Below, piece by piece: positions 14,284 to 58,414 of a DNA stretch of 64,000 bases (its first letter is position 1; each line of letters begins with the position of its first letter). Location: positions 1 through 64,000 of the IMG/VR virus record IMGVR_UViG_3300028883_000036; one strand, written 5' to 3'. Origin of the DNA: a virus. The notes beneath the pieces were generated by a model. The model saw only the letters and a program-made list of their open reading frames with translations, did not search any database and had not been told where the DNA came from. A program made the translations under genes and the position numbers.

Positions 14284-15162
14284 ATGGGTAGACGTAAAAT
14301 GACAGATAAAGAAAAAATTGCTGCTAAAAATAAAAAAATATGGAAAGATGCTGTTTCTTCATACAAAAGACAAATGAATTCAGACTATGAAGAATGCATG
14401 AATGCCATTAATCGTGGAGCAGTTAGTACTCCCACATATACATATGATGTAGGAGATAGAGTTATATTTGGTGCTTTTGATTATACAACTATTCTTGAAA
14501 AATTTGATAATGGAAAATATTATAAAACATTTGAAATAACAAAGAATATTGCATATGGTAAATATATGGGGGAAAAATATCGTTTTGGTTATCGACTATG
14601 GACAGAATTAAGACCATATAGCACCAATGATGATAATATTCCTAAATTGAGAGAAAATGAAGATATTAAATTTAATTATGGTCAAAGAGATATACAATCT
14701 TTGATATATCAGTACTATGGTGGTAAAGCATCTGGTATTGACATGGAACCTGATTACCAAAGAGAATTAGTATGGAATGAATCTCAAAAAGTAGCTCTTA
14801 TTGATTCAATTTATAAAAATATTGATATTGGAAAATTTACTTTTATTAAAAGAAAATATGATCCGAATGATCATTTTCATCTTGAAGTATTAGATGGTAA
14901 ACAAAGGATTAAAGCTATATTGGATTTCTATGAATGTAGAATTAAATATAAAGGTTTTACATTTAATGAAATGAATTGGAGAGATCAATATCATTTCAGA
15001 GGATACCATATAAATTGGGCTGAAACTGATCATTTGACTGATGAACAAAAATATAGGTATTTTTTGAAACTGAATACAGGTGGTGTTCCAATACCTGAAG
15101 ATCATATTAAAAAGGTAAGGGAACTATGGTTAAATTCTAAACTACAAGGATTTGAAAAATGA
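14284..15162 (+). CDS. DUF262 (ParB/Srx-like, GmrS-type) domain protein
   Basis: PDYQRELVW..Q..LIDSI...IG...VLDGKQR...LN.GG. Confidence 0.8.
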   Translation: MGRRKMTDKEKIAAKNKKIWKDAVSSYKRQMNSDYEECMNAINRGAVSTPTYTYDVGDRVIFGAFDYTTILEKFDNGKYYKTFEITKNIAYGKYMGEKYRFGYRLWTELRPYSTNDDNIPKLRENEDIKFNYGQRDIQSLIYQYYGGKASGIDMEPDYQRELVWNESQKVALIDSIYKNIDIGKFTFIKRKYDPNDHFHLEVLDGKQRIKAILDFYECRIKYKGFTFNEMNWRDQYHFRGYHINWAETDHLTDEQKYRYFLKLNTGGVPIPEDHIKKVRELWLNSKLQGFEK

Positions 15163-16442
15163 AATTTAAAAAACCAAAAAATGAAAATTATGCTGCTACT
15201 ATAGTAGTAATTAAAAATGTAATTGAACTTGAAGGATGTGATAATATTCAAGGAACTATTATCTTTGGAAATCATGTTATAATTGGTAAAGATGTTTCTG
15301 TAGGAAACAAAGGAGTTTTCTTTCCTGCGGAAACTCAATTGAGTCATGAATATGCTTATGAAAATAATCTTTATAGACATGCTGAACTTAATAAAGATAA
15401 AGAAAAAAAAGGTTATATAGAAGATAATAGAAGAATCAGAACTATGAAACTAAGAGGTAATAAATCTTGTGGTTTATTTATGCCTCTTTCTTCTCTTGCA
15501 ACATTTCTTGATAAATATCAACTTATTGAAGAAGGGGATACTTTTGATGAAATCAATACTATTCCTATTTGTAACAAATATATTGTGAAGAAAAAGAATA
15601 GCCAAGGACAAAATAAAAAGAAAAAAGCAAAAAAGATTTCCAAATTGCTTGATAATCAATTTAGATTTCATCAAGATACTTCTAATTTAGGAAAAAATGC
15701 TCATAAATTTAAATCTGATGATTTAATAAGCATTACCTATAAAATACATGGTACATCTACTATTTCTTCTAAAATTCTATGTAAAAAGAAAATCAATTGG
15801 TTTTATAAACTTCTTAGATTTTTTAAAGTAAAAATAGTAGATTTTGAATATGATAATATCTATTCTTCTAGAAAAGTTATTAAAAATGATGATATGAATG
15901 AAGGGAAGAATAGTTTTTATAATGTAGATATTTGGGGATTAGCAAATAAAGTATTGAATGAATATCTACTTGATGGTATGACTATCTATGCAGAAATTGT
16001 TGGATATCTACCTACTGGTGCTTATATTCAAAAACCATTTGATTATGGATGTAAAGATAATACTTTTGAAGTATATATATATCGTATTACCTATACAAAT
16101 TCTTCTGGAAATGTATTTGAATTTTCTTGGAAGCAATTAAAAGATTGGTGCAATGATCGTGGGCTAAAACATGTTCCTGAATTATTTTATGGTCCAGTAA
16201 GAGATGTTCTTAGATATGGAGATAAATTTGAATCTCTTGCTGATGATTTAATTGAATCTTTGAGAGATGAATATCTTGAACAAGATTGCTGGATGTGTAA
16301 AAATAAAGTACCAGCAGAAGGAATTGTAATAAGAAAAGAATGCAATGATTTTGAAGCATATAAATTCAAAAGTTTTAAATTTCTTGAATTTGAAACTAAA
16401 AAACTTGACAAAGGTGAAAGTGATATAGAAGAAGAAAATTAA
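15159..16442 (+). CDS. ATP-dependent RNA ligase (Rnl2/DRB0094-like) with N-terminal tRNA-binding OB-like domain
   Basis: motif I TYKIHGT, YAEIVG, FEVYIYRI, EGIVIR, YKFKS; N-term IELEGCDNI...KLRGNKSCGL. Confidence 0.8.
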   Translation: MKFKKPKNENYAATIVVIKNVIELEGCDNIQGTIIFGNHVIIGKDVSVGNKGVFFPAETQLSHEYAYENNLYRHAELNKDKEKKGYIEDNRRIRTMKLRGNKSCGLFMPLSSLATFLDKYQLIEEGDTFDEINTIPICNKYIVKKKNSQGQNKKKKAKKISKLLDNQFRFHQDTSNLGKNAHKFKSDDLISITYKIHGTSTISSKILCKKKINWFYKLLRFFKVKIVDFEYDNIYSSRKVIKNDDMNEGKNSFYNVDIWGLANKVLNEYLLDGMTIYAEIVGYLPTGAYIQKPFDYGCKDNTFEVYIYRITYTNSSGNVFEFSWKQLKDWCNDRGLKHVPELFYGPVRDVLRYGDKFESLADDLIESLRDEYLEQDCWMCKNKVPAEGIVIRKECNDFEAYKFKSFKFLEFETKKLDKGESDIEEEN

Positions 16443-16459
16443 GGAAAGGAAAAGATATT

Positions 16460-16693
16460 ATGCAGAAAAGAATATTTGTTAGATTAAATAATACTTCACT
16501 TGGAACAATACTTCATGAAATTCATAAAGCTGATTGTACATGCTCATATTGTCGTGGAATGGTGCATTACGGTCTAAACATTCCAAGCAATATCAGTTTT
16601 AATTCATGGTTTGTTTTGAAATATGGCAAAGGTAAATATATCAGAATGACATTTAATTTCTTGAAGCGTTTCAAAAGATGTTCACTTCTCTGA
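16460..16693 (+). CDS. hypothetical protein
   Basis: AAGGA RBS; H..DCTCSYC. Confidence 0.55.
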   Translation: MQKRIFVRLNNTSLGTILHEIHKADCTCSYCRGMVHYGLNIPSNISFNSWFVLKYGKGKYIRMTFNFLKRFKRCSLL

Positions 16694-16735
16694 TATAGAA
16701 AAAGTATATAAAGGATATATAGAAAGGAAATAATA

Positions 16736-17077
16736 ATGGGATTAATTCAAGATGGAGATTTTACAATATCTTACAATGAATGGAATGATGCAACAGTATA
16801 TCATATTCCCACAAAAACAACTTTTGTTGGATGTGGAACAAATGATAGAGCTAAAAATTTATCTGTTGCTTTGGATGCTATGGAAAGAATTATTTATCAA
16901 AAAAATAAATGTAAAACTCCACATGAAAGATGGATTGAATTAAAAAAGAATTTCATTGATGATATTGTAAAAAAAATATATGAAATAGATGAAGATCATA
17001 ATTCAAATCTTGATTTTGAACCTGATTGGTGGGTTGAGATGATTAACTTTTGCACTAAATTAAGGAGAATGAAATAA
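16736..17077 (+). CDS. hypothetical protein
   Basis: AAGGA RBS. Confidence 0.6.
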   Translation: MGLIQDGDFTISYNEWNDATVYHIPTKTTFVGCGTNDRAKNLSVALDAMERIIYQKNKCKTPHERWIELKKNFIDDIVKKIYEIDEDHNSNLDFEPDWWVEMINFCTKLRRMK

Positions 17078-17292
17078 TGAAATTGACTCTTGATAAAATA
17101 ATTAAAAAATTAAAAACAATAGAGACAAATTTCAATAATACCGATGATCCAACTAAAAGATATGCATTACTTCAGGCATTAAATCATATAGGTGAAAAGG
17201 AAATTCCGTTTCATGGATATTGGGAAGATGCATATCTAAAATCAATGTTAAAGGAACATGGTGCTGATCCTGAAGTTAAAAAATATGAATAG
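17077..17292 (+). CDS. hypothetical protein
   Basis: TAATG coupling. Confidence 0.6.
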   Translation: MKLTLDKIIKKLKTIETNFNNTDDPTKRYALLQALNHIGEKEIPFHGYWEDAYLKSMLKEHGADPEVKKYE

Positions 17293-17301
17293 GAAATAAA
17301 A

Positions 17302-17625
17302 ATGAATATAATATTAATATTTTGGTTACATTTTATAGCTGATTTTTTCTTACAATCAGAATATATGGCTATAAATAAAAATAAAAATAATATGGCACTT
17401 TCTTATCATTGTGCTGTATATTGTATTCCTTTTTTATTATTAGGATTTAAATATTCTATTCTTGCTGGTCTATTACATTTTCCTGTTGATTATATTACTT
17501 CAAAAATAACTCATACATTATATGATAATAAAGAATATCATTGGTTTTTTGTTGTAATTGGATTTGATCAAGCTATTCATATGACAGTTTTAGTATTAAT
17601 GGCAAAAATATTAGGAATACTTTAA
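17302..17625 (+). CDS. DUF3307-family membrane protein
   Basis: [14 protein letters not shown]...Y, H..VD, GFDQAIH. Confidence 0.8.
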
Positions 17626-17636
17626 GAGAGAGAAAA

Positions 17637-18626
17637 ATGGGATTGATAACTGATTTAGGAAAAAAAAGAATAAAATTAATTGAATCTATTGAATATATAC
17701 ATGGTATAAAAGCAGAACAATTAATGATTTTATCTGAAGCTGGTTCAAATATGTATGGAACTGCAACAGAAAATTCTGATATAGATTATATTGGTGTATA
17801 TTTACCTACTAAAGAACAAATATTGTTAAATGATTTTCCAAAACAAGTAAGCATAAAAGAAAATGAAATTGATCTTCAAATATGGTCAATATATTATTTT
17901 TTGAAGCTTGCTTGTCAAGGAGAAACTTTATCTATTGATTTACTTCATTCACCATATCATTGTTGGTTAGTATTTAATGATAATTGGTTATATATCAAAG
18001 ATAGAAAATATAAATTTTATACTAAAAAAATGAAAGCTTTTGTAGGTTATGCAAGAAAACAAGCTGCAAAATATGGTATAAAAGGTGAAAGGATAAATGA
18101 TCTAAAAAAAGTAATTGATTATTTAAAAACTATAGATCCAAAAACTAAACTTAAAGACATTTGGCATAATTTACCTACAGGAGAACATATACATTTTCTT
18201 GATGATGAAAAACCTTGGAAAATGTATCAAGTATCTGGTAGAAAATATCAAGAAACTGTTACAGTTAAATATACAATTACAGGTCTGTCAAATCTATTGA
18301 CAGATTATGGAAAACGTGCTATAATAGCTTCTGAAAATAAAGGAATAGATTGGAAAGCTATATCTCATGCTTTAAGAGCAGGATATCAACTTTTTGATAT
18401 TTTAACTAAAAATGGATATGAATATCCATTAACTAATGCCAAATTTGTAAAAAATGTTAAATTAGGTAAACATGATTTTAAATATGTTCAGCATGAACTT
18501 GATAAAATCATAAATGCTGTTGAAGAAAAAATGGAAAAATCTATTTTACCTGAAAAAGTAAATAAAGAATATTGGAATGAATGGTTACTTAAAATAATAG
18601 AAAGGCATGTAAATGATTGGTCATGA
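17637..18626 (+). CDS. Pol-beta-superfamily nucleotidyltransferase (T4 NrdC.11/RlaP-like)
   Basis: GSNMYGTATENSDIDYIGVY; DWKAISHALR. Confidence 0.8.
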   Translation: MGLITDLGKKRIKLIESIEYIHGIKAEQLMILSEAGSNMYGTATENSDIDYIGVYLPTKEQILLNDFPKQVSIKENEIDLQIWSIYYFLKLACQGETLSIDLLHSPYHCWLVFNDNWLYIKDRKYKFYTKKMKAFVGYARKQAAKYGIKGERINDLKKVIDYLKTIDPKTKLKDIWHNLPTGEHIHFLDDEKPWKMYQVSGRKYQETVTVKYTITGLSNLLTDYGKRAIIASENKGIDWKAISHALRAGYQLFDILTKNGYEYPLTNAKFVKNVKLGKHDFKYVQHELDKIINAVEEKMEKSILPEKVNKEYWNEWLLKIIERHVNDWS

Positions 18627-19380
18627 AAAATATTCAGATAATGATAACTTAGTTAAAGAAAAAGAAAAAAAAGTATATTTTTATTTAACTGTAGGAATTC
18701 TTACAATAGCAATATTTACTATTTTCTTTTTGAATGATTTAAAGATAGTAAAATATCTCATACCTGATGCATTTTATAAAGAAGTAAGAGTTGAAGTTCC
18801 TGTTGAAAAAGAAATTATAAAATATGTAGAAAAGACAGGAATGAAAACAAGTGAATTTGTAACAATTTTAAATCCAAAAGTTGATCCAATTATAGCAGAA
18901 CAAATTGGAATGTCAGTTGATAAACATGCAAAAAATTATCAGTTACCAAGAAAGCTTGTATTAGGTATTATAAATAAAGAATCTGCATTTAATCCATTTG
19001 CTAAATCCAATGTAGCTATAGGATTGATGCAAATATATCCAAAATATCATCAAGATAAAATTGATGATCTAAAGATAAAAGATAAAAGAAAACTTTTTCA
19101 TATTGATATAAATATTGAAATTGGTTGTAAAATATTTAGAGAATATTTTGATCAAACTGATGGAGATTTAGATGAAACATTTCATAAATATCTATCTAAA
19201 AATGCTACCAAAGAACAAAAAGATAAATATAAAAATAATGTTTTGACTACATATGCAATGTTAGATTTTATAGAATTTCAGCATAAAAATACTATTATAA
19301 AAGAAGAAGATGTTGAAGAAGAAATAAAACTATTAGAAAAGGAAAATACAGAAAATGAAAAAAGGATTCACATTGATTGA
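18613..19380 (+). CDS. membrane-anchored lytic transglycosylase (SLT)
   Basis: IINKESAFNPFAKS..AIGLMQI...NIEIG; N-terminal TM. Confidence 0.85.
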   Translation: MIGHEKYSDNDNLVKEKEKKVYFYLTVGILTIAIFTIFFLNDLKIVKYLIPDAFYKEVRVEVPVEKEIIKYVEKTGMKTSEFVTILNPKVDPIIAEQIGMSVDKHAKNYQLPRKLVLGIINKESAFNPFAKSNVAIGLMQIYPKYHQDKIDDLKIKDKRKLFHIDINIEIGCKIFREYFDQTDGDLDETFHKYLSKNATKEQKDKYKNNVLTTYAMLDFIEFQHKNTIIKEEDVEEEIKLLEKENTENEKRIHID

Positions 19381-19519
19381 ACTTATGATTGTTATTCTTA
19401 TTTTAGGATTATGTATTGGTATAATTGGTCCTGTAATGTGTGATTTTGAAGTTAAAAATGAAGTTATTGTTGAAAAATATGATACACAAGAGAAAGGAAA
19501 ATTTCAAGGAGATTATTGA
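19355..19519 (+). CDS. truncated type IV prepilin-like peptide (54 aa)
   Basis: MKKG/FTLIELMIVILILGLCIGIIGP class III signal peptide with E5; not in ORF track. Confidence 0.75.
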   Translation: MKKGFTLIELMIVILILGLCIGIIGPVMCDFEVKNEVIVEKYDTQEKGKFQGDY

Positions 19520-19746
19520 AAATGCCTATAGTTATATGTAAAGGATGTGGAAAAAAAACTAATACAGCATGTAGTAAATTTAATAGAGGAAAACCACCTA
19601 ATGAATGTTATGCTGCATATGATGATAAAAATAAAAAATGGATAAAAGGTTGTGGATTTGAAAATGCTAGTAATTTTGAGAAAGCATTTGCAATGCATCT
19701 TATTACAAAAAAATCAATTTCTTATTTTTTAAGAGGATCTGGATAA
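19516..19746 (+). CDS. Cys-containing hypothetical protein
   Basis: CKGCG...C; AGGAG RBS. Confidence 0.6.
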   Translation: MKMPIVICKGCGKKTNTACSKFNRGKPPNECYAAYDDKNKKWIKGCGFENASNFEKAFAMHLITKKSISYFLRGSG

Positions 19747-20945
19747 TGAAATTTAATAAAAACTTTAATGTATTTAGTCATGCTTATTTTGGTAATGGGC
19801 AAAAGTTAAATGTACCTATTAAATTGTTTCTATCTGAAGTAGAAGATGGGGCAATGTTCCAAATGGATCATTTAGCTCAATTACCTTTTGTATTTCATCA
19901 TGTAGCAGGAATGCCTGATATGCATCAAGGATATGGTATGCCTATTGGTGGTGTAATGGCTACTAAAGAATATATAGTGCCTAATGCTGTAGGTATGGAT
20001 ATTGGATGTGGTATGTGTAGTATTCAAACTTCTTTCACTGAAATTGATAAACCTATTTTAAAGAAGATAATGGGGGATATTAGAAAACTTATTCCTGTTG
20101 GTTTTAAACATAATGAACATTCTCAAAAAGGTATGCCTATAAATTATAATCTTTCTTTACCAATTATAGATGAAAATTATTCTTCTGCTCAAAAACAATT
20201 GGGAACTCTTGGTGGTGGAAATCATTTCATTGAAATTCAAAAAGGAGATGATGGATTTATTTATATAATGATTCATTCTGGAAGTAGAAACTTAGGAGCA
20301 AAAGTAGCTACTCATTATAATAAAGTAGCTGTTGATTTAAATGAAAAATGGCATAGTAAAGTTCCTAAAAATTGGCAATTAGCATATCTACCTTTTCATG
20401 ATACTGAAGGACAATCTTATTTTGAAGAAATGAAATACTGTTGTGATTTTGCATTAGCAAATAGAAAACTAATGATGGATAGAGTTAAAGAAGCAATGAC
20501 TAACCATCTTGATATTGATTTTTGGGAAGATACTTTTATAAACATTCATCATAACTATGCTGCTATAGAAAATCATTTTGGAAAAAATGTTTTAGTACAT
20601 AGAAAAGGTGCTACTAGAGCATATAAAGGAGAACTTGGTATTATTCCAGGGAGTCAAGGAACATATAGCTATATTGTAGAAGGTAAAGGATATGAAGATA
20701 GTTTCAAATCATGTAGTCATGGTGCTGGAAGATTAATGAGTAGAAGTAGAGCTAAAAAAGAACTTAATCTTGCACTTGAAATCAAAAAACTTGATGATCA
20801 AGGTATTGTTCACGGTATTAGACATATCAGTGATTTGGATGAAGCTAGTGGTGCATATAAAGATATTGATGATGTTATGCTTAATCAAATCAAACTTGTT
20901 ATGATAAAAAAAGAACTAAAACCTATTGCAGTAGTAAAAGGATAG
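19746..20945 (+). CDS. rtcB: RNA-splicing/repair ligase RtcB
   Basis: MPDMHQGYGMPIG, VGMDIGCG, GTLGGGNHFIE, HSGSR, HNY, HRKGAT, SCSHGAGR, DEASGAYK. Confidence 0.95.
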   Translation: MKFNKNFNVFSHAYFGNGQKLNVPIKLFLSEVEDGAMFQMDHLAQLPFVFHHVAGMPDMHQGYGMPIGGVMATKEYIVPNAVGMDIGCGMCSIQTSFTEIDKPILKKIMGDIRKLIPVGFKHNEHSQKGMPINYNLSLPIIDENYSSAQKQLGTLGGGNHFIEIQKGDDGFIYIMIHSGSRNLGAKVATHYNKVAVDLNEKWHSKVPKNWQLAYLPFHDTEGQSYFEEMKYCCDFALANRKLMMDRVKEAMTNHLDIDFWEDTFINIHHNYAAIENHFGKNVLVHRKGATRAYKGELGIIPGSQGTYSYIVEGKGYEDSFKSCSHGAGRLMSRSRAKKELNLALEIKKLDDQGIVHGIRHISDLDEASGAYKDIDDVMLNQIKLVMIKKELKPIAVVKG

Positions 20946-21672: not shown

Positions 21673-22003
21673 AATTGAAACTCATATAAAAGACTGTGAA
21701 AAAATCCTTGGTAATGGTTTTGAAGAAGTTCATAAATGGCTTGACCAGTATGCAAAAAAATATAATCCTTTTTTGATGCTTGAATATCATAGACAATTTC
21801 TTCATCATGCCAAGGGAGTAGAAAAAGTAAAAGAAAAATGGGGATTTTATGCTGAACAAGCTGCAAAACTTCATATAATAAGAGACTGTAGTGTTTATAT
21901 TTATTTTAATATTGATAAAATAAGAGAAGATGATATAGAACCATTATATCAAAAAGCATTAAAATTTTGTCATGATCCAAAGGATGTTCCAGATGATATA
22001 TAA
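21665..22003 (+). CDS. His-rich helical protein (DUF6915-like)
   Basis: H..D.......VHKWLD...HR..LHH..G...HI..D. Confidence 0.55.
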   Translation: MAEIETHIKDCEKILGNGFEEVHKWLDQYAKKYNPFLMLEYHRQFLHHAKGVEKVKEKWGFYAEQAAKLHIIRDCSVYIYFNIDKIREDDIEPLYQKALKFCHDPKDVPDDI

Positions 22004-22048
22004 ATAACCAATAGTGGACTAAAATAAAATGGAAGTAAATAAATAAAT

Positions 22049-22264
22049 ATGATATTATTTAGAAAGAACAAATTAAAAGAAGTAGTAAAAAGGAATAAAA
22101 AATTAAAAGAATCTGAAGCATATAAAGAACTTAAAAAAATAGAAAAAACATTAGAAGAAATATTTACAAAAGAGTCATTTAGATGTAAATTTTTTAAAGA
22201 AAATAAATGTAATCATAAAAAAAACAATATGAGTATTTGTAATATTGATAAATGTCCAAAATAA
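22049..22264 (+). CDS. hypothetical protein
   Basis: ORF in run. Confidence 0.5.
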   Translation: MILFRKNKLKEVVKRNKKLKESEAYKELKKIEKTLEEIFTKESFRCKFFKENKCNHKKNNMSICNIDKCPK

Positions 22265-22279
22265 AAAAGGAAATTTAAA

Positions 22280-22642
22280 ATGTGGGTAAAATTTAAATTT
22301 AGATTTGCATATGGTGAAGATAAAAAATGGTCTTATAAAGAAATTCCCGATGATTGGAAAACTTATGGTTATGATGAAAAAGAATGGGAAAATGATGAAG
22401 ATGAAGCATTATGTGACTATCTTGCCAATGAAGAACGTCTTCATTCACTATATGATTATTCAGAATTATATAGAGGATTTAAGGCTGAAAAAATTGAAGG
22501 ATATCCACCTGTAGATGAAATCATAAAAAGATTAAAAAAATGTGAAAGAAATGCAGAATATTATACTGAAGAATCTAAAAGATTCAGAGAAATGTTAGAT
22601 GTAGCTGGTCATATAACAAAAAAAGATTCAGATATTACTTGA
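22280..22642 (+). CDS. hypothetical protein
   Basis: AAGGA RBS. Confidence 0.65.
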   Translation: MWVKFKFRFAYGEDKKWSYKEIPDDWKTYGYDEKEWENDEDEALCDYLANEERLHSLYDYSELYRGFKAEKIEGYPPVDEIIKRLKKCERNAEYYTEESKRFREMLDVAGHITKKDSDIT

Positions 22643-22666
22643 CATTATATTATAAATACATATAGT
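22639..22666 (+). promoter_or_regulatory. promoter of amber cassette
   Basis: TTGACA-16-TATAGT; also contains T4-late-like TATAAATA at 22651. Confidence 0.6.
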
Positions 22667-22698
22667 AAGATAGTAAATAAACGAAAGGAGAAAATATC

Positions 22699-22776
22699 AT
22701 GATGCCATTTCAATAGATAGTAAGAGGACCACCTTTTTTTATTGTACACACAACTACAATTTATAATAAAATATAA
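22699..22776 (+). CDS. leader peptide with in-frame amber codon followed by RGPP arrest-like motif
   Basis: GAAAGGAG RBS; ATG ATG CCA TTT CAA TAG ATA GTA AGA GGA CCA CCT...TAA = MMPFQ*IVRGPPFFIVHTTTIYNKI. Confidence 0.65.
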
Positions 22777-22795
22777 TAAAAAAAGGAGACAAAAA

Positions 22796-23098
22796 ATGAA
22801 ATTCAAAGAATTTAAAAATCAAATCAAAGAAGAACAAAAGCAATTAGCAAATCAAATTAAAAATTTTAAAAAAGAACGAAAAAAAACATCTACAGGCTAT
22901 ATATCAGGTTTAGATCAAAAAAGATCTACTTATAGACATAAACATATTGTTTACTGTCAATTATTTAATAACACTCCCTATAAACAAATAGAAAGAAGTT
23001 GTCATGAATGCCCAAATCAATATATACTTGACAGATATACAAAAGAATGGTATAAAGTATTTGAACAATTTGAACATGAAGAAAGGATTGCTGTATGA
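22796..23098 (+). CDS. hypothetical protein of amber cassette (100 aa)
   Basis: AAGGAG RBS; coiled N-term, YRHKHIVYC...TPY.QIE motif. Confidence 0.75.
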   Translation: MKFKEFKNQIKEEQKQLANQIKNFKKERKKTSTGYISGLDQKRSTYRHKHIVYCQLFNNTPYKQIERSCHECPNQYILDRYTKEWYKVFEQFEHEERIAV

Positions 23099-23427
23099 AA
23101 AATAAAAATTGGGGTCAAAAAAATGGCTCAACATAGACTAAAATGTATGTTATAATCAGAAAAGATATACCTAAAATTCATCAAGCTGTTCAAGGTGGAC
23201 ATGCTTTAGCGGAATATCTTTTAAATGAATCAACATCTTGGACTAACGGAACTTTAATCTATTTGGGTATTAAAGGACTAAATCAGATTGAGAATTTAAA
23301 ATATAAATTTGATTCAGAAGGGATACCTTATAGAGAGTTTAGAGAACCTGATCTTGATAATCAAATAACGTCAATAGCAACAGATACAAAAAATAAGTAT
23401 ATAAAAAAACTAAACTTATTGGCTTGA
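23095..23427 (+). CDS. peptidyl-tRNA hydrolase 2-like protein with in-frame TAG (23134-23136)
   Basis: MYVIIRKD...AVQGGHA...FREPDLDNQITSIAT; ATG 23095 has GAAAGGA RBS and ATGA overlap and is in frame through one TAG. Confidence 0.75.
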
Positions 23428-23496
23428 TAGCTCAACGGCAGAGCAGGGAACTCTAAATTCCTGTTAGTGTAGGTTCAAATCCTATTCAAGCCACCA
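23421..23496 (+). tRNA. amber suppressor tRNA (anticodon CTA)
   Basis: GGCTTGA-TA-GCTC-AACGGCA-GAGC-A-GGGAA-CTCTAAA-TTCCT-GTTAGT-GTAGG-TTCAAAT-CCTAT-TCAAGCC-A-CCA. Confidence 0.9.
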
Positions 23497-23523
23497 AATC
23501 AAAAAAGGTATGGGAAAATATTG

Positions 23524-23558
23524 TGACAATTTTTGACAAACTTTGACAATTTTTGTCA
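23524..23558. promoter_or_regulatory. tandem palindromic operator/enhancer sites (TGACA-N5-TGTCA x2)
   Basis: TGACAATTTTTGACA and TGACAATTTTTGTCA, 20 bp period; reverse complement of the 11.9 kb sites; inside a larger inverted repeat (TATGGGAA...TTCCCATA). Confidence 0.75.
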
Positions 23559-23630
23559 CAATTCCCATAACCTCAAAAATACTAAAATCTATAAACCCCT
23601 AAAATCATTCAAATAATTTTTTTTGGTACT

Positions 23631-23647
23631 TTGGCATAAGACTTGTA
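23631..23647 (+). promoter_or_regulatory. sigma54 (-24/-12) promoter
   Basis: TTGGCATAAGACTTGTA (TGGCA-N6-TTGT, one deviation at -12). Confidence 0.6.
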
Positions 23648-23689
23648 TATATTATAGACATGAATAACGAAAACAACATAGGGGGAAAC

Positions 23690-25000
23690 ATGACTGACTC
23701 AATCATTATCGAAAAAATTGATATCCCTGTTGCCAAAAAAAATTACCTTCAGACCAAAATTGACAAGATCAATCGTAAAGCCAAAAAAATGGGTTGTGAA
23801 CCCTTGGTTTTGGTTTTTGATAATGAACATGTTTACACATATAATGTTGATCATTATACAGGTGCGAAATTGGCATTCCCACGACACATTGATATGTGTA
23901 CTGCTAATTTAATCTATCAAATTCCTATCATTGAAGGATATGAGTTGATTGCAAGATTGGATATCTATCCTACTGTTGATGGTGGAAATGAAGTCATGGT
24001 TTCTGCTGTTCCTGAAAAGAAAGTTCCTGCCAAATATATGAACAAAACCGAAATTCACTGTGATCATTGTGGATGGAAACGTAATCGGAACCATTCCATT
24101 TTGCTGCAACATACGGAAACTGGTGAATATAAAGAAGTTGGTTCGACTTGTGTTAAAGATTTTTTTGGAATTGATCCCAAAGGTTTCATGCTCATGGCAA
24201 GTATCAAGTTTGATGAACTTATCAATGGCATTGATACTGATGATAGATATCAGAATGAAATGAAAAATTCTGGTGGGTATGATATAATTGAAGTTTTTGC
24301 TGTATCTGCTGCTGCTATTGCCAAATGGGGATGGTTGAGTAAAGGTAAAGCTTGGGAACTGAATAAAGAATATGATGCATCTTATATATCTACTGCATCC
24401 CATGTTATTGATAATCTTGATAGAGAGTCTGCTTATTATGCCAAAATGGATGATTCTCTGAAAGTTCACATTGAAAATGAAGACATTGAACTTGCAAAAA
24501 AAGTTTATGAATATTTTACTAATCTTGATCCTAAAAATAATGATTATTTAATCAATTGCTGTAAAATTATTCGAATTGGTTATGTACCTTATAATCATAT
24601 TGGTATTACCTGTTCAATGGTTTCTGCATACAATCGTGAAATTGCTAAAATTGAAAAAATTGAAGCTGATAAAAAATCTGGTGAAGTTGTTTCTGAATGG
24701 CAAGGTGCTGTAGGTCAACGTCTTAAAGACATCACAGTTGAATGCACCTATACCAGAACTTTTCAAAATGATTTTGGTGAACAAACTCTCTATGCTTTTA
24801 AAGATGCAAATGGAAATGTATATAAGACTTTTTACAGTGGATATAAATGGTCTTGTGAAGTTGGTGATATTGTCATGATTACGGGAACTGTTAAAAAACA
24901 TAACGAATTTCAGGGAAAAAAAGAAACCATGATGAATCGTGTAGTTACCAAAGATGCTCCTTCAGAGGCATTTGCTGCCAATGAATTTGTAATTGCATAA
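23690..25000 (+). CDS. conserved large-phage protein with Zn-finger and C-terminal OB-fold
   Basis: CDHC...R.R...VGSTC; C-term GDIVMITGTVKKHNEFQGKKETMMNRV; GGGGG RBS. Confidence 0.7.
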   Translation: MTDSIIIEKIDIPVAKKNYLQTKIDKINRKAKKMGCEPLVLVFDNEHVYTYNVDHYTGAKLAFPRHIDMCTANLIYQIPIIEGYELIARLDIYPTVDGGNEVMVSAVPEKKVPAKYMNKTEIHCDHCGWKRNRNHSILLQHTETGEYKEVGSTCVKDFFGIDPKGFMLMASIKFDELINGIDTDDRYQNEMKNSGGYDIIEVFAVSAAAIAKWGWLSKGKAWELNKEYDASYISTASHVIDNLDRESAYYAKMDDSLKVHIENEDIELAKKVYEYFTNLDPKNNDYLINCCKIIRIGYVPYNHIGITCSMVSAYNREIAKIEKIEADKKSGEVVSEWQGAVGQRLKDITVECTYTRTFQNDFGEQTLYAFKDANGNVYKTFYSGYKWSCEVGDIVMITGTVKKHNEFQGKKETMMNRVVTKDAPSEAFAANEFVIA

Positions 25001-57824: not shown

Positions 57825-58082
57825 TTATTCATTTATTTCCTTCACTGAAATAAAATTTGAAAATGCTACCTTTACAAAAATATAATCTTTATAATCATAA
57901 AATATAAGGATATTGCCATCTATTTTACAATAACGAGATTCAATTACTTCTTCAATTACTTCTTCCCATTGTTTTTCTTTTTCTTTATCATATTTAACTT
58001 CATAATATTTAACTTTAAATTTTTTCATAATCATCTTTGTCATGATACATCTCCTTAATATATTTATAATATTTTTACCCAC
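57825..58082 (-). CDS. hypothetical protein
   Basis: AAGGAG RBS before internal Met. Confidence 0.5.
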   Translation of the reverse strand: MGKNIINILRRCIMTKMIMKKFKVKYYEVKYDKEKEKQWEEVIEEVIESRYCKIDGNILIFYDYKDYIFVKVAFSNFISVKEINE

Positions 58083-58414
58083 TTATTATCTTTCTTACCT
58101 TCTATTTTAAGATTATTAGATTTTATTTGTTCTTCTACCATTTCATCAATAGATTTTCCATTCATTACCTGATAGACCATCATAGAATGCCATAATTTAA
58201 ATTTAGGATGTTTAATCAAACCATCAAATGCTTCCTTGATATTTGCTTTTCTTTCACGATTTGATTGACCAGTAGCCATAGCACCCGATTCTTTATGATG
58301 TATTCTTACACAATTTTGATGTTTATTTCTATATTGCCCACCTGCTCCTTTACCAGAAAAATATTCAATATTTAAATTTTTTTTAGTTACTGAAAATAAT
58401 AATTCTTTTTTCAT
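58064..58414 (-). CDS. class I release-factor-like GGQ-domain protein (ArfB/PrfH-like)
   Basis: SGKGAGGQYRNK...VRIHH.ESG......R...N. Confidence 0.85.
   Translation of the reverse strand: MKKELLFSVTKKNLNIEYFSGKGAGGQYRNKHQNCVRIHHKESGAMATGQSNRERKANIKEAFDGLIKHPKFKLWHSMMVYQVMNGKSIDEMVEEQIKSNNLKIEGKKDNKWVKIL

What the first reader, a model, noticed from the sequence alone, without database searches (positions are those of the whole stretch)
22639..23496. Self-contained amber-readthrough cassette: UAG-RGPP leader, unknown ORF, UAG-interrupted Pth2-like gene and CUA suppressor tRNA
Seen: one promoter drives four elements. (i) A leader with a strong RBS reads MMPFQ-TAG-IVRGPP. (ii) A 100-aa unknown ORF follows. 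(iii) The best-supported start of a Pth2-like gene (23095; GAAAGGA RBS plus ATGA overlap) is in frame with the catalytic region but interrupted by a TAG at 23134; the internal ATG at 23143 has no evident RBS. (iv) A canonical tRNA with CUA anticodon overlaps that gene's stop. Known: RAPP/RGPP are ribosome-arrest motifs (ApdA/ApdP class), and Pth2 cleaves peptidyl-tRNA. Elsewhere in the window UAG is a genuine stop (rtcB ends VVKG-TAG). Inference: two amber codons in one ~800-bp unit with its own suppressor form a feedback circuit sensing UAG readthrough versus RF1 termination. It may autoregulate the suppressor, rescue termination when host RF1 is limiting or attacked by a defence system, or be an early step toward phage stop-codon recoding. 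The unknown ORF is a candidate charging, modifying or partner factor for the tRNA.
Basis: partly seen in the sequence, partly recalled or inferred. Interest (0 to 1): 0.92.

Follow-up and report, generated by a model that had tools for sequence, protein, structure and literature searches.

The report
Stop-codon-gated phage tRNA switch cassette
A marine-sediment phage that uses the normal genetic code carries a small conserved gene cassette. In it, the phage's own UAG-reading tRNA appears to switch on two neighbouring genes by reading through a UAG stop placed in a tiny stalling leader, a natural tRNA-operated switch for which I found no published description.

Summary
Comparison with about 190 related loci shows the unit is a widespread, conserved phage module and not a chance arrangement.

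- **Order in this clade:** promoter, SD-ATG-x(1-10)-TAG-...Pro-Pro leader, a basic 100-aa helical protein ("ORF-X", no Pfam or PHROG family), a Pth2-fold hydrolase, then tRNA(CUA).
- **tRNA linkage:** 79 of 97 unique loci carry the tRNA, always on the same strand.
- **Leader specificity:** the leader pattern occurs 39 and 19 times with TAG in two locus sets, against 0-1 for each TAA, TGA or opposite-strand control.
- **Close relatives (79-84% identity):** they keep MKPFL-TAG-I-I-R-[D/G]-P-P with synonymous codon changes on both sides of the TAG.
- **Hairpin:** a hairpin sequesters the ORF-X ribosome-binding site, and its 5' arm lies at the Pro-Pro codons.
- **Best reading:** UAG readthrough by the tRNA carries ribosomes to the RGPP arrest site. 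The stalled ribosome opens the hairpin and turns on ORF-X and the coupled hydrolase.
- **Second TAG (23134):** it is specific to this lineage. It recurs in this gene family (26 of 26 start-less genes sit behind a TAG), but here it is ambiguous because an ATG follows it.

What the two proteins do is not shown. The scan has found this cassette before on other DNA, in at least 201 genomes. I found no literature description.

The parts
22639..22666 (+). Promoter-like site, TTGACA-16-TATAGT, overlapping the stop codon of the upstream gene
   Evidence: Best consensus match in 22000-24000 (11 of 12). The CTTGACA and -10 positions are conserved in relatives L117-L119. Promoter-like sites as a class are not above chance in this AT-rich region.
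22699..22776 (+). Leader ORF: MMPFQ, TAG (22714-22716), then IVRGPP (RGPP codons 22723-22734) and 13 more codons to TAA. SD GGAG lies at 22687-22690.
   Evidence: Homologous leaders read MKPFL-TAG-IIRDPP / IKIIRGPP / IIRDPP in L117-L119, with synonymous codon changes (Leu TTA/CTG/CTA, Arg AGA vs CGT, Ile ATA/ATT). The pattern is TAG-specific.
22732..22786 (+). Hairpin that sequesters the ORF-X Shine-Dalgarno. The 5' arm (22732-22746) starts with the second Pro codon. The 3' arm (22772-22786) covers the first two G of GGAG (22785-22788).
   Evidence: 15-bp stem in both the MFE and centroid folds. The same architecture appears in 22 of 28 related leaders. Mean sensor:SD duplex energy is -12.7 kcal/mol against -4.3 for the upstream control, Wilcoxon p 4e-6.
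22796..23098 (+). ORF-X: a 100-aa basic (pI 9.4) helical protein of an unannotated family, with motif [YF]RHxHIAYCxLRG..E.IE
   Evidence: Family found in 70 of 106 loci next to the Pth2-like gene. There are 2201 clusters in the 1.84-billion-protein library and no Pfam or PHROG match. AF2 pLDDT is 95 with four helices. Natural fusions to the Pth2-like domain: P0169, P0179, P0222, P0263.
23095..23136 (+). 13-codon N-terminal extension frame (MKNKNWGQKNGST) ending in TAG at 23134-23136, in frame with the Pth2-like gene. It has the SD AAAGGA and an ATGA overlap with the ORF-X stop.
   Evidence: This is the only amber-led long ORF in the 107.6-kb genome. The TAG sits where relatives have the ATG start, at position -3. 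It is absent in the closest relatives L117-L119. A similar layout occurs in L036, L063 and L096.
23143..23427 (+). Pth2-fold hydrolase-like gene, 94 aa from the ATG at 23143 or 110 aa if read from 23095 through the TAG
   Evidence: Pfam PTH2 E 0.018, below the cutoff; phrog_3668 at 6e-8. The family profile matches solved archaeal Pth2 at E 1e-7. AF2 pLDDT is 94.5, and Foldseek top hits are Pth2 2zv3/3erj/1xty and Bit1, TM 0.74-0.81.
23421..23496 (+). tRNA with anticodon CUA, anticodon loop CU-CUA-AA, A73 and an encoded CCA. It overlaps the Pth2-like stop codon.
   Evidence: ARAGORN and Rfam RF00005 at 62 bits. A tRNA(CUA) lies on the same strand in 79 of 97 unique related loci, and in 44 of them it starts 250-450 nt after the domain start. 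The loop CUCUAAA occurs in 54 of 80 distinct suppressor tRNAs.

Best explanation
The 860-bp unit is a conserved phage module that makes two proteins only while the phage's own tRNA(CUA) is decoding UAG.

**Proposed steps**
1. One promoter transcribes the leader, ORF-X, the Pth2-like gene and the tRNA.
2. Ribosomes start on the leader. If RF1 wins at UAG (codon 6), they leave about 15 nt before a hairpin that hides the ORF-X ribosome-binding site, and ORF-X stays off.
3. If the charged CUA tRNA wins, ribosomes read on to Arg-Gly-Pro-Pro, a known intrinsic arrest motif, and pause with the Pro codons in the P and A sites.
4. The paused ribosome covers the 5' arm of the hairpin (22732-22746) and frees the ORF-X SD.
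5. ORF-X is then translated, and the Pth2-like gene is translated by coupling (ATGA overlap).
6. In this phage the coupled frame meets a second UAG at 23134, which probably adds a second readthrough requirement.

**What is shown and what is inferred**
- Shown by sequence comparison: conservation of the parts, the TAG specificity, peptide-level selection across the TAG, and the hairpin geometry.
- Inferred: the stall, the SD unmasking, and expression and charging of the tRNA.
- Most speculative: the output. ORF-X (basic, helical) plus the Pth2-fold domain may act as one two-part enzyme on an ester at a tRNA 3' end. The substrate could be the suppressor tRNA itself, which would hold readthrough at a set level (about 0.3). 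It could instead be peptidyl-tRNAs produced when stops are overridden (about 0.25). Alternatively the gate could simply delay expression until the tRNA has accumulated (about 0.2).
For: **Linkage**
- tRNA(CUA) is present in 79 of 97 unique loci and always co-oriented. CUA accounts for 82 of the 327 tRNAs in these loci.
- In the replication set, 60 of 91 loci carry it.

**Leader**
- SD-ATG-x(1-10)-STOP followed within 12 codons by Pro-Pro in a short ORF: TAG on the + strand 39 times, against TAA+ 0, TGA+ 1, TAG- 1 and TGA- 1.
- 36 of the 39 lie 346-566 nt upstream of the Pth2 domain.
- In the replication set the count is 19 versus 0 in all five controls.

**Peptide-level selection on both sides of the TAG, in one frame**
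- WIN, L117, L118 and L119 use Leu TTA/CTG/CTA, Ile ATA/ATT, Arg AGA versus CGT, and Gly/Asp GGA/GGG/GAT/GAC, with Pro-Pro invariant.

**Arrest motif**
- RGPP is the strongest and most context-independent arrest motif. RDPP and RSPP are partly permissive (PMC12992588; mechanism in PMC10951233, listed).

**Hairpin**
- In 22 of 28 leaders the ORF-X SD core is paired in the MFE fold. In 21 of those 22 the partner arm lies -5 to +25 nt from the Pro-Pro codons (one lies at +45).
- Duplex energy is -12.7 versus -4.3 kcal/mol, p 4e-6, and z is -2.6 against dinucleotide shuffles. The window's own hairpin is shown.

**Direct amber gate in the family**
- 26 loci have no canonical start between the nearest upstream stop and the domain. 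In 26 of 26 that stop is TAG and in none is it TAA or TGA. It is preceded by ATG 1-16 codons upstream and mostly followed by ATT.
- These include the cultured standard-code phages Acinetobacter ME3, Serratia BF and Ralstonia RsoM2USA, each of which has a tRNA(CUA).

**ORF-X and the hydrolase form one unit**
- They are adjacent or overlapping in 70 loci and fused in P0169, P0179, P0222 and P0263.

**No other client**
- The genome uses the standard code, and the Pth2 frame is its only amber-led long ORF.
Against: - Nothing is experimental. Expression, processing and charging of the tRNA, the stall and the induced translation are all inferred.
- The window's own hairpin is A-U rich and on its own is not unusual (z -1.4).
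- The nascent chain at the RGPP site is only about 10 residues, shorter than any tested arrest peptide.
- In several loci the Pro-Pro codons themselves form the anti-SD (CCUCC-like). Part of their conservation could therefore be at RNA level.
- The closest relatives lack the second TAG, and in the window an ATG lies 6 nt after it. Pth2 could therefore start by reinitiation without readthrough.
- 22 phage genes end in TAG, so a strong suppressor would be costly.
- The Lys regarded as catalytic in Pth2 (recalled from the literature, not checked here) is not conserved in this family, so even hydrolase activity is unproven.
- Promoter-like matches are at chance level in this region.
Confidence: 0.68

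Rival explanations
1. The leader gate is real, but the TAG at 23134 is an ordinary stop. The 13-codon frame from 23095 would be a coupling mini-ORF, and ribosomes that terminate at the TAG would reinitiate at ATG 23143, 6 nt downstream. On this reading the Pth2-like protein needs readthrough only at the leader.
For: The three closest relatives (79-84% identity) have no TAG there and start at the corresponding Met or 2 codons before it. The window is the only one of the 26 'start-less' loci with ATG at domain position 1. Short-range termination-reinitiation is established in bacteria (general knowledge).
Against: The TAG occupies exactly the position of the relatives' start codon (-3). L036, L063 and L096 in the same clade have a TAG a few codons before the domain (at -3 only in L036), and the domain there begins with Leu codons, which cannot start translation. 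Across the family the stop before a start-less domain is TAG in 26 of 26 cases. No SD precedes 23143.
Confidence: 0.4
2. Readthrough-dependent unmasking without a peptide arrest. Any ribosome that passes the TAG would melt the hairpin simply by translating through its 5' arm. The Pro-Pro codons would be conserved mainly as anti-SD RNA (CCNCC), not as a stalling peptide.
For: In L004, L036, L040, L060, L067, L070 and the window, the Pro codons are part of the anti-SD arm. Many leaders end in xKxPP-stop without Arg at -3.
Against: Pro-Pro codon pairs vary (CCA CCT, CCG CCG, CCA CCG, CCT CCC) and in many loci lie outside the helix. When the ORF continues past Pro-Pro, the motif is R-[G/S]-P-P (window, L036, L059, L060, L118, L145, L172). 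Arg is kept through a switch of codon family (AGA vs CGT). Pro-Pro followed by a stop, and RxPP, are known stalling contexts (PMC12992588).
Confidence: 0.15
3. The TAGs are plain stops and the tRNA is unrelated cargo. The leader would be a 5-codon minigene, ORF-X and Pth2 would be translated from their own sites, and the CUA tRNA would sit there only because tRNA genes cluster.
For: ORF-X has a strong SD of its own. Phage tRNA genes often cluster with RNA-repair genes, and this phage has RtcB, an RNA ligase and a nucleotidyltransferase just upstream.
Against: There is in-frame peptide conservation after the TAG with synonymous changes. The pattern is exclusive to TAG against the TAA, TGA and opposite-strand controls in two sets. 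The stop before start-less domains is TAG in 26 of 26 cases. CUA is four times more frequent than any other anticodon in these loci.
Confidence: 0.04
4. The phage is recoded (TAG read as an amino acid genome-wide, 'code 15'), so the two TAGs are ordinary sense codons.
For: The best GenBank matches of the hydrolase include TAG-recoded Lak megaphages. Some related loci have internal TAGs in the gene (L006, L031, L050, L055-L057).
Against: Coding density under the standard code is 0.88 and barely rises when TAG is read as sense. 22 of 152 long ORFs end in TAG. All seven in-frame TAG junctions are followed by an SD and ATG of the next gene. No other amber-led long ORF exists.
Confidence: 0.02

Closest known systems
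RAPP/RGPP-type regulatory arrest peptides (ApdA, ApdP, ApcA; SecM with RAGP; MifM), which unmask a downstream Shine-Dalgarno
   Same: A small upstream ORF carries R-G-P-P. The downstream gene's SD is held in a hairpin whose 5' arm lies where a stalled ribosome would sit. RGPP, RAPP, RDPP and RSPP variants occur among relatives.
   Different: Known members are 'monitoring substrates' with a signal or membrane segment, and their stall is relieved by Sec/YidC activity. Here the peptide is about 10 residues and has no targeting segment. The regulated step is whether the ribosome reaches the motif at all, which is decided at a UAG by a dedicated tRNA. The downstream genes are tRNA-related, not secretion genes.
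Leader-peptide attenuation (trp, his, pheST and other operons) and other leader ORFs that sense charged tRNA
   Same: Translation of a short leader reports the availability of one charged tRNA and changes an RNA structure that controls the genes behind it.
   Different: The sensed codon is a stop codon and the sensed tRNA is a suppressor encoded in the same unit. The competitor is a release factor. The structure controls translation initiation, not transcription termination.
prfB (RF2) autoregulation through an early in-frame UGA
   Same: An early in-frame stop codon makes synthesis depend on the balance between termination and an alternative decoding event.
   Different: prfB escapes by a +1 frameshift and its product is the release factor itself. 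Here escape is in-frame suppression by a tRNA, and the products are not release factors.
Phage stop-codon recoding and 'code-change modules' (suppressor tRNA, release factor, aaRS; Borges et al., bioRxiv 10.1101/2021.08.26.457843)
   Same: A phage-encoded suppressor tRNA is proposed to time the expression of genes that contain in-frame stops. Suppressor tRNAs have also been noted in standard-code phages.
   Different: This genome is not recoded, and the only clients are the cassette's own leader and gene. Neither that preprint nor the theta-ribozyme paper mentions a hydrolase or Pth, and no HDV-like ribozyme was found next to this tRNA.
Archaeal/eukaryotic peptidyl-tRNA hydrolase 2 (Pth2; PDB 2zv3, 3erj, 1xty; human Bit1 1q7s)
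   Same: Same alpha/beta fold (TM 0.74-0.81) and detectable profile homology. The Q..H motif of helix 1 and an acidic residue plus Thr in the C-terminal strand region are kept.
   Different: The protein is shorter (94 vs about 115 aa). The Gly-Lys loop is 2 residues shorter and has no conserved Lys. The Asp position is an invariant Glu within an invariant E-P-D. There is a new invariant Trp. The domain always comes with a partner protein (ORF-X) or is fused to it.

Membership tests
PTH2 peptidyl-tRNA hydrolase (Pfam PF01981) | Sequence match above the Pfam gathering score | tested here: not met
   15.7 bits against a cutoff of 23, E 0.018. However, a 15-sequence family profile hits solved Pth2 chains at E 1e-7 to 9e-7 over their full length.
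PTH2 peptidyl-tRNA hydrolase (Pfam PF01981) | Pth2 alpha/beta fold | tested here: met
   AF2 model pLDDT 94.5. The top 13 Foldseek PDB hits are 11 Pth2/Bit1-family chains plus the uncharacterised proteins 1rlk (TA0108) and 2gax (Atu0240); the best is E 3.5e-5 and TM is 0.66-0.81.
PTH2 peptidyl-tRNA hydrolase (Pfam PF01981) | Catalytic Lys and Asp (as recalled from mutagenesis of Sulfolobus Pth2; not re-read here) | tested here: inconclusive
   The Asp column aligns with an invariant Glu68. The Lys loop is shortened and not conserved.
PTH2 peptidyl-tRNA hydrolase (Pfam PF01981) | Hydrolysis of peptidyl-tRNA | not testable with these tools
   Requires an enzyme assay.
RAPP/RGPP arrest peptides (ApdA/ApdP class) | R-[A/G]-P-P motif in a small ORF upstream of a co-oriented gene | tested here: met
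   RGPP at 22723-22734. Relatives have RDPP, RGPP, RAPP or RSPP.
RAPP/RGPP arrest peptides (ApdA/ApdP class) | The downstream SD is sequestered in a structure that a ribosome stalled at the motif would open | tested here: met
   This is computed folding only.
RAPP/RGPP arrest peptides (ApdA/ApdP class) | Monitoring-substrate design: an N-terminal signal or membrane segment, with the downstream gene belonging to the localisation machinery | tested here: not met
   The leader has 5 codons before the TAG and 2 between the TAG and the motif. The downstream genes are ORF-X and a Pth2-like protein. It works like an arrest leader but is not a member of that regulatory class.
RAPP/RGPP arrest peptides (ApdA/ApdP class) | Demonstrated ribosome stalling | not testable with these tools
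   Requires toeprinting, PURE-system translation or ribosome profiling.
Amber suppressor tRNA | Cloverleaf tRNA with anticodon CUA and a suppressor-type loop | tested here: met
   ARAGORN and Rfam at 62 bits. The loop is CU-CUA-AA, with a 7-bp acceptor stem, A73 and an encoded CCA.
Amber suppressor tRNA | Expressed, aminoacylated and active in decoding UAG | not testable with these tools
The amino-acid identity could not be inferred, because acceptor stems and discriminators vary across the family.
TAG-recoded ('code 15') phages | Many genes with in-frame TAG and low coding density under the standard code | tested here: not met

The most novel reading that the evidence does not exclude
The CUA tRNA is not a decoding aid but a dedicated signalling molecule of a self-contained translational circuit. 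ORF-X plus the Pth2-fold domain would form a hydrolase specific for the acylated suppressor tRNA (or its peptidyl form). Readthrough would then induce the enzyme that removes its own inducer, a natural negative-feedback 'orthogonal tRNA' homeostat. It would hold UAG readthrough of phage and host genes at a set level, and phages that later recoded TAG genome-wide could have built on it.
Probability: 0.22. Interest if true: 0.92.

Novelty: new variant of a known kind. Interest (0 to 1): 0.8.

Why it matters
- **A new kind of natural switch.** If the mechanism holds, this is a natural gene switch operated by a private suppressor tRNA. It combines three known devices in a way I did not find described: leader-peptide sensing of a tRNA, an RGPP arrest peptide, and Shine-Dalgarno sequestration.
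- **It may explain suppressor tRNAs in standard-code phages.** This has been an open point in the phage-recoding literature. It also names two protein families (ORF-X, with more than 2000 clusters, and a phage Pth2-like clade) as their constant partners.
- **It gives recoding research a candidate regulator or evolutionary intermediate.**
- **It corrects existing annotations.** The hydrolase gene is unannotated in the Serratia BF and Ralstonia RsoM2USA records. The search table also shows no annotated feature under the match in the Erwinia and Yersinia records. In BF and RsoM2USA the gene starts ATG-x(1-2)-TAG.
- **It offers synthetic biology a compact, evolved amber-suppression sensor.**
- **It can be tested directly.** The cultured phages that carry it are Acinetobacter ME3, Serratia BF and Ralstonia RsoM2USA.

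Tried and rejected
- **Genome-wide recoding:** rejected.
- **Other amber-led genes in the 107.6-kb genome:** none credible.
- **DNA similarity of the cassette to GenBank phages:** only a chance 83-nt match.
- **Single-protein search for ORF-X in IMG/VR:** found nothing. The family appeared only through synteny and an iterated HMM.
- **ORF-X function:**
  - No Pfam or PHROG family.
  - No Foldseek match (E at least 2.7).
  - VIA-wide gave only generic helical matches (Z at most 6.6).
  - The ESM Atlas gave no usable hit.
  - The word-index search for longer, fused forms found none, although the exhaustive profile search did find fusions.
- **Complex prediction on ORF-X with the Pth2-like protein:** returned 'no answer', which is neither for nor against binding.
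- **Amino-acid identity of the tRNA:**
  - Nearest neighbours are other suppressor tRNAs.
  - Acceptor stems and discriminators are not conserved (A 42, U 17, G 14, C 7).
  - The resemblance to the phage's own short-arm 'Leu' tRNAs is only about 70%, so no assignment was made.
- **Rfam scan of 22000-24000 at E up to 1:** only the tRNA, with no theta/HDV-like ribozyme, riboswitch or T-box.
- **An intrinsic terminator in the leader:** none found.
- **Apparent in-frame ORF-X-to-Pth2 open frames in relatives:** these are alternative-frame reading of the overlap, not fusions. The conserved ORF-X C-terminal tail is probably a by-product of dual coding with the Pth2 N-terminus.
Full report
**1. The observation**

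- A TTGACA-16-TATAGT site lies at 22639-22666. It is the best promoter-like match locally, although such matches are at chance frequency in this 27% GC DNA.
- GGAG (22687-22690) precedes ATG 22699. The frame reads MMPFQ, TAG (22714), IVRGPP and 13 more codons to TAA 22776.
- ORF 22796-23098 (100 aa) has its own AAAGGAG.
- ATG 23095 overlaps that ORF's TGA (ATGA), has AAAGGA 7 nt upstream and reads 13 codons, then TAG (23134), then T-K.
- The Pth2-like frame runs from 23143 to 23427.
- A tRNA with anticodon CUA (23421-23496; Rfam 62 bits) begins 4 nt before the gene's stop.

The contig is a 107.6-kb virus record with CheckV completeness 51%. Earlier notes of this scan describe it as T4-related and from marine sediment, which I did not check. 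It uses the standard code. Coding density is 0.88, TAG ends 22 of 152 long ORFs, rtcB ends in TAG, and all seven in-frame TAG junctions are followed by an SD and ATG.

**2. The gene-tRNA pair is conserved**

Homologues of the 94-aa protein were collected from several sources:
- IMG/VR (378 relatives, 101 loci kept);
- GenBank phages;
- species genomes (mostly very large contigs in MAG bins, which look like mis-binned phages);
- metagenomes.

Among 97 unique loci of the first set, 79 have a tRNA(CUA), always on the same strand. In 44 of them it starts 250-450 nt after the domain start, that is, directly behind the gene as in the window. CUA makes up 82 of the 327 tRNAs in these loci, and the next most frequent anticodon has 20. 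In the second set, 60 of 91 mostly short contigs have it.

**3. The amber codon in the gene**

In 26 loci there is no ATG, GTG or TTG between the nearest upstream in-frame stop and the conserved domain. In 26 of 26 that stop is TAG, never TAA or TGA. It is preceded by ATG 1-16 codons upstream (13 cases with M-x-TAG) and followed by ATT in 16 cases.

These loci include cultured phages of standard-code hosts:
- Acinetobacter ME3: M-T-TAG, with the tRNA annotated 'anticodon CTA' 450 nt upstream.
- Serratia BF: M-T-H-TAG.
- Ralstonia RsoM2USA: M-L-TAG.

In BF and RsoM2USA the gene is unannotated, and a tRNA(CUA) lies elsewhere in the genome.

In the window's own clade most genes start M-x-K directly before the domain. 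The window, L036, L063 and L096 instead have TAG. In the window and L036 it sits exactly at the position of the relatives' start codon.

The three closest relatives (L117-L119, 79-84% identity) lack this TAG. The window also has an ATG two codons after it. The second gate is therefore plausible by family precedent but ambiguous here.

**4. The leader**

My first estimate was that the RGPP uORF was chance.

- The pattern searched was SD, ATG, 1-10 codons, stop, then Pro-Pro within 12 codons in an ORF of at most 30 codons.
- It occurs 39 times with TAG on the gene strand, against 0 (TAA), 1 (TGA), 1 (TAG, opposite strand) and 1 (TGA, opposite strand).
- 36 of the 39 lie 346-566 nt upstream of the hydrolase domain.
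- The independent set gives 19 versus 0 in all five controls.
- Most leaders end Pro-Pro-stop (IKIPP, VKKPP, ISYKPP, ARAPP). Those that continue carry R-[G/S]-P-P.

The closest relatives read MKPFL-TAG-IIRDPP, MKPFL-TAG-IKIIRGPP and MKPFL-TAG-IIRDPP, against MMPFQ-TAG-IVRGPP in the window. Their codon differences are:
- Leu: TTA, CTG or CTA.
- Ile: ATA or ATT.
- Arg: AGA versus CGT.

The Pro-Pro pair, the SD and the -35 box do not vary. Selection therefore acts on the peptide on both sides of the TAG in one frame, which is what readthrough predicts.

RGPP is reported as the strongest and least context-dependent arrest motif and is EF-P resistant. RDPP and RSPP are partly permissive (PMC12992588; PMC10951233 and PMC7897499 listed).

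**5. How the leader could act**

In the window a 15-bp stem pairs 22732-22746, beginning with the second Pro codon, with 22772-22786, which contains the first half of the ORF-X SD.

Across 28 leaders:
- The ORF-X SD core is paired in the MFE fold in 22.
- In 21 of those 22 the partner arm lies -5 to +25 nt from the Pro-Pro codons; in one it lies at +45.
- The sensor:SD duplex averages -12.7 kcal/mol, against -4.3 for a control window upstream (p 4e-6).
- The mean z against dinucleotide shuffles is -2.6.
- The arms differ in sequence between loci but stay complementary.

A ribosome that terminates at the TAG ends about 15 nt short of the arm. A ribosome arrested at RGPP covers it. This is the SecM/MifM/ApdA logic, except that access to the arrest site is decided at a UAG.

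**6. The outputs**

*ORF-X.* It belongs to a large unannotated family, found in 70 of 106 loci and in 2201 clusters, with no Pfam or PHROG match.
- It is basic (median pI 9.4) and confidently predicted as four helices (pLDDT 95), with no specific structural relative.
- It lies directly upstream of the hydrolase gene, usually overlapping its start.
- In the distant clade it lies between the hydrolase gene and the tRNA.
- At least four cluster representatives are ORF-X-hydrolase fusions. The two therefore most likely work as one unit.

*The hydrolase.* It has a Pth2 fold. Its invariant residues are Q14, Q17, H20, W33, E68, P69 and T76. The Pth2 Asp position is Glu, and the Lys loop is not conserved. 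Its activity and substrate are unknown.

*Neighbouring genes.* The cassette sits among RNA-repair genes: an RNA ligase, a nucleotidyltransferase and RtcB. The phage also encodes a stand-alone GGQ release-factor domain.

**7. What remains inferred**

- No expression data could be obtained.
- The inserted amino acid is unknown. The loop CU-CUA-AA is conserved, but the acceptor-stem identity elements are not.
- The purpose of the circuit is open. Because this genome has no other amber client, three readings remain:
  - the products act on the suppressor or on the consequences of suppression;
  - the gate is a delay element;
  - low-level readthrough of TAG-terminated genes is the real output and the cassette tunes it.

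**8. Novelty**

- Full-text searches found no description of a Pth2-like gene or a UAG-gated leader linked to phage suppressor tRNAs.
- The scan has reported the same cassette on other DNA, in at least 201 genomes.
- This window adds four things:
  - a case carrying both gates;
  - close relatives that show peptide-level selection across the TAG;
  - controls for the leader in two locus sets, and the anti-SD geometry;
  - the ORF-X family, with its fusions to the hydrolase domain.

Noticed in passing
window 23420-23427: The tRNA 5' end (23421) lies 4 nt upstream of the Pth2-like stop codon (TGA 23425-23427). RNase P processing of a co-transcript would therefore leave the hydrolase mRNA without a stop codon. 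tRNA maturation and translation of that mRNA copy would then be mutually exclusive. The same overlap occurs in L117.
   Followed up: partly
window 58064-58414 (-): A 116-aa protein consisting of a stand-alone release-factor GGQ domain (Pfam RF-1 at 44 bits; weak matches to prfA, prfB and prfH; the motif GAGGQ is present). It has no codon-recognition domains and resembles ArfB/PrfH-type ribosome-rescue hydrolases. It lies next to an SbcCD-like gene.
   Followed up: partly
window 23506-23573: A strong hairpin lies directly behind the tRNA (-26 kcal/mol, z -5.8). It contains the repeats TGTGACAA, TTTGACAA and TTTGACAA and their inverted copy. There is no U-tract on the + strand but a T-run on the - strand. 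It could be a terminator, a processing site or an operator for the next gene (23660).
   Followed up: partly
G000:C1:97326-97591 (outside the window): Three tRNAs with Leu anticodons (UAA, CAA, UAG) are only 76-79 nt long and have short variable loops, which is unusual for bacterial-type tRNA-Leu. Their D-loop and variable region resemble those of the CUA tRNA (about 70% identity).
   Followed up: partly
window 15159-20945: An RNA-repair cluster lies just upstream of the cassette: an RNA ligase (phrog_968), a nucleotidyltransferase (phrog_388) and RtcB (phrog_1075). A phrog_850 'RNA-binding protein' lies at 747-2189.
   Followed up: partly
L024 (Stenotrophomonas phage RAS14) and L025 (Xanthomonas phage XacN1), locus position 2440: The Pth2-like domain is the C-terminal part of a protein of about 260 aa. 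The open frame begins SD-ATG-AAA-TAG about 25 codons upstream of the annotated start. This larger fused form may therefore also be amber-led. No CUA tRNA lies within 3 kb.
   Followed up: no
L029 (Serratia phage BF), L030 (Ralstonia phage RsoM2USA); also Erwinia and Yersinia jumbo phage records H25-H39: The Pth2-like gene is not annotated in these GenBank records. In BF and RsoM2USA (checked here) it falls in an apparent intergenic gap, probably because it begins ATG-x(1-2)-TAG.
   Followed up: partly
L022, L023 (Prevotella phages Lak-C1, Lak-B7): In the TAG-recoded Lak megaphages the homologous gene has no N-terminal TAG and a 28-codon extension. The nearby tRNA (about 700 nt upstream) has anticodon UUA instead of CUA.
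   Followed up: no
L011:1393-1767: A phage-encoded tmRNA gene lies 1.2 kb upstream of an amber-led Pth2-like gene. That gene is followed by tRNA-Cys and two CUA tRNAs.
   Followed up: no
L009, L010, L011, L013: In one clade a tRNA-Cys(GCA) lies upstream of a CUA tRNA: directly (5-6 nt) in L009 and L010, 3 nt in L013, and about 265 nt in L011.
   Followed up: no
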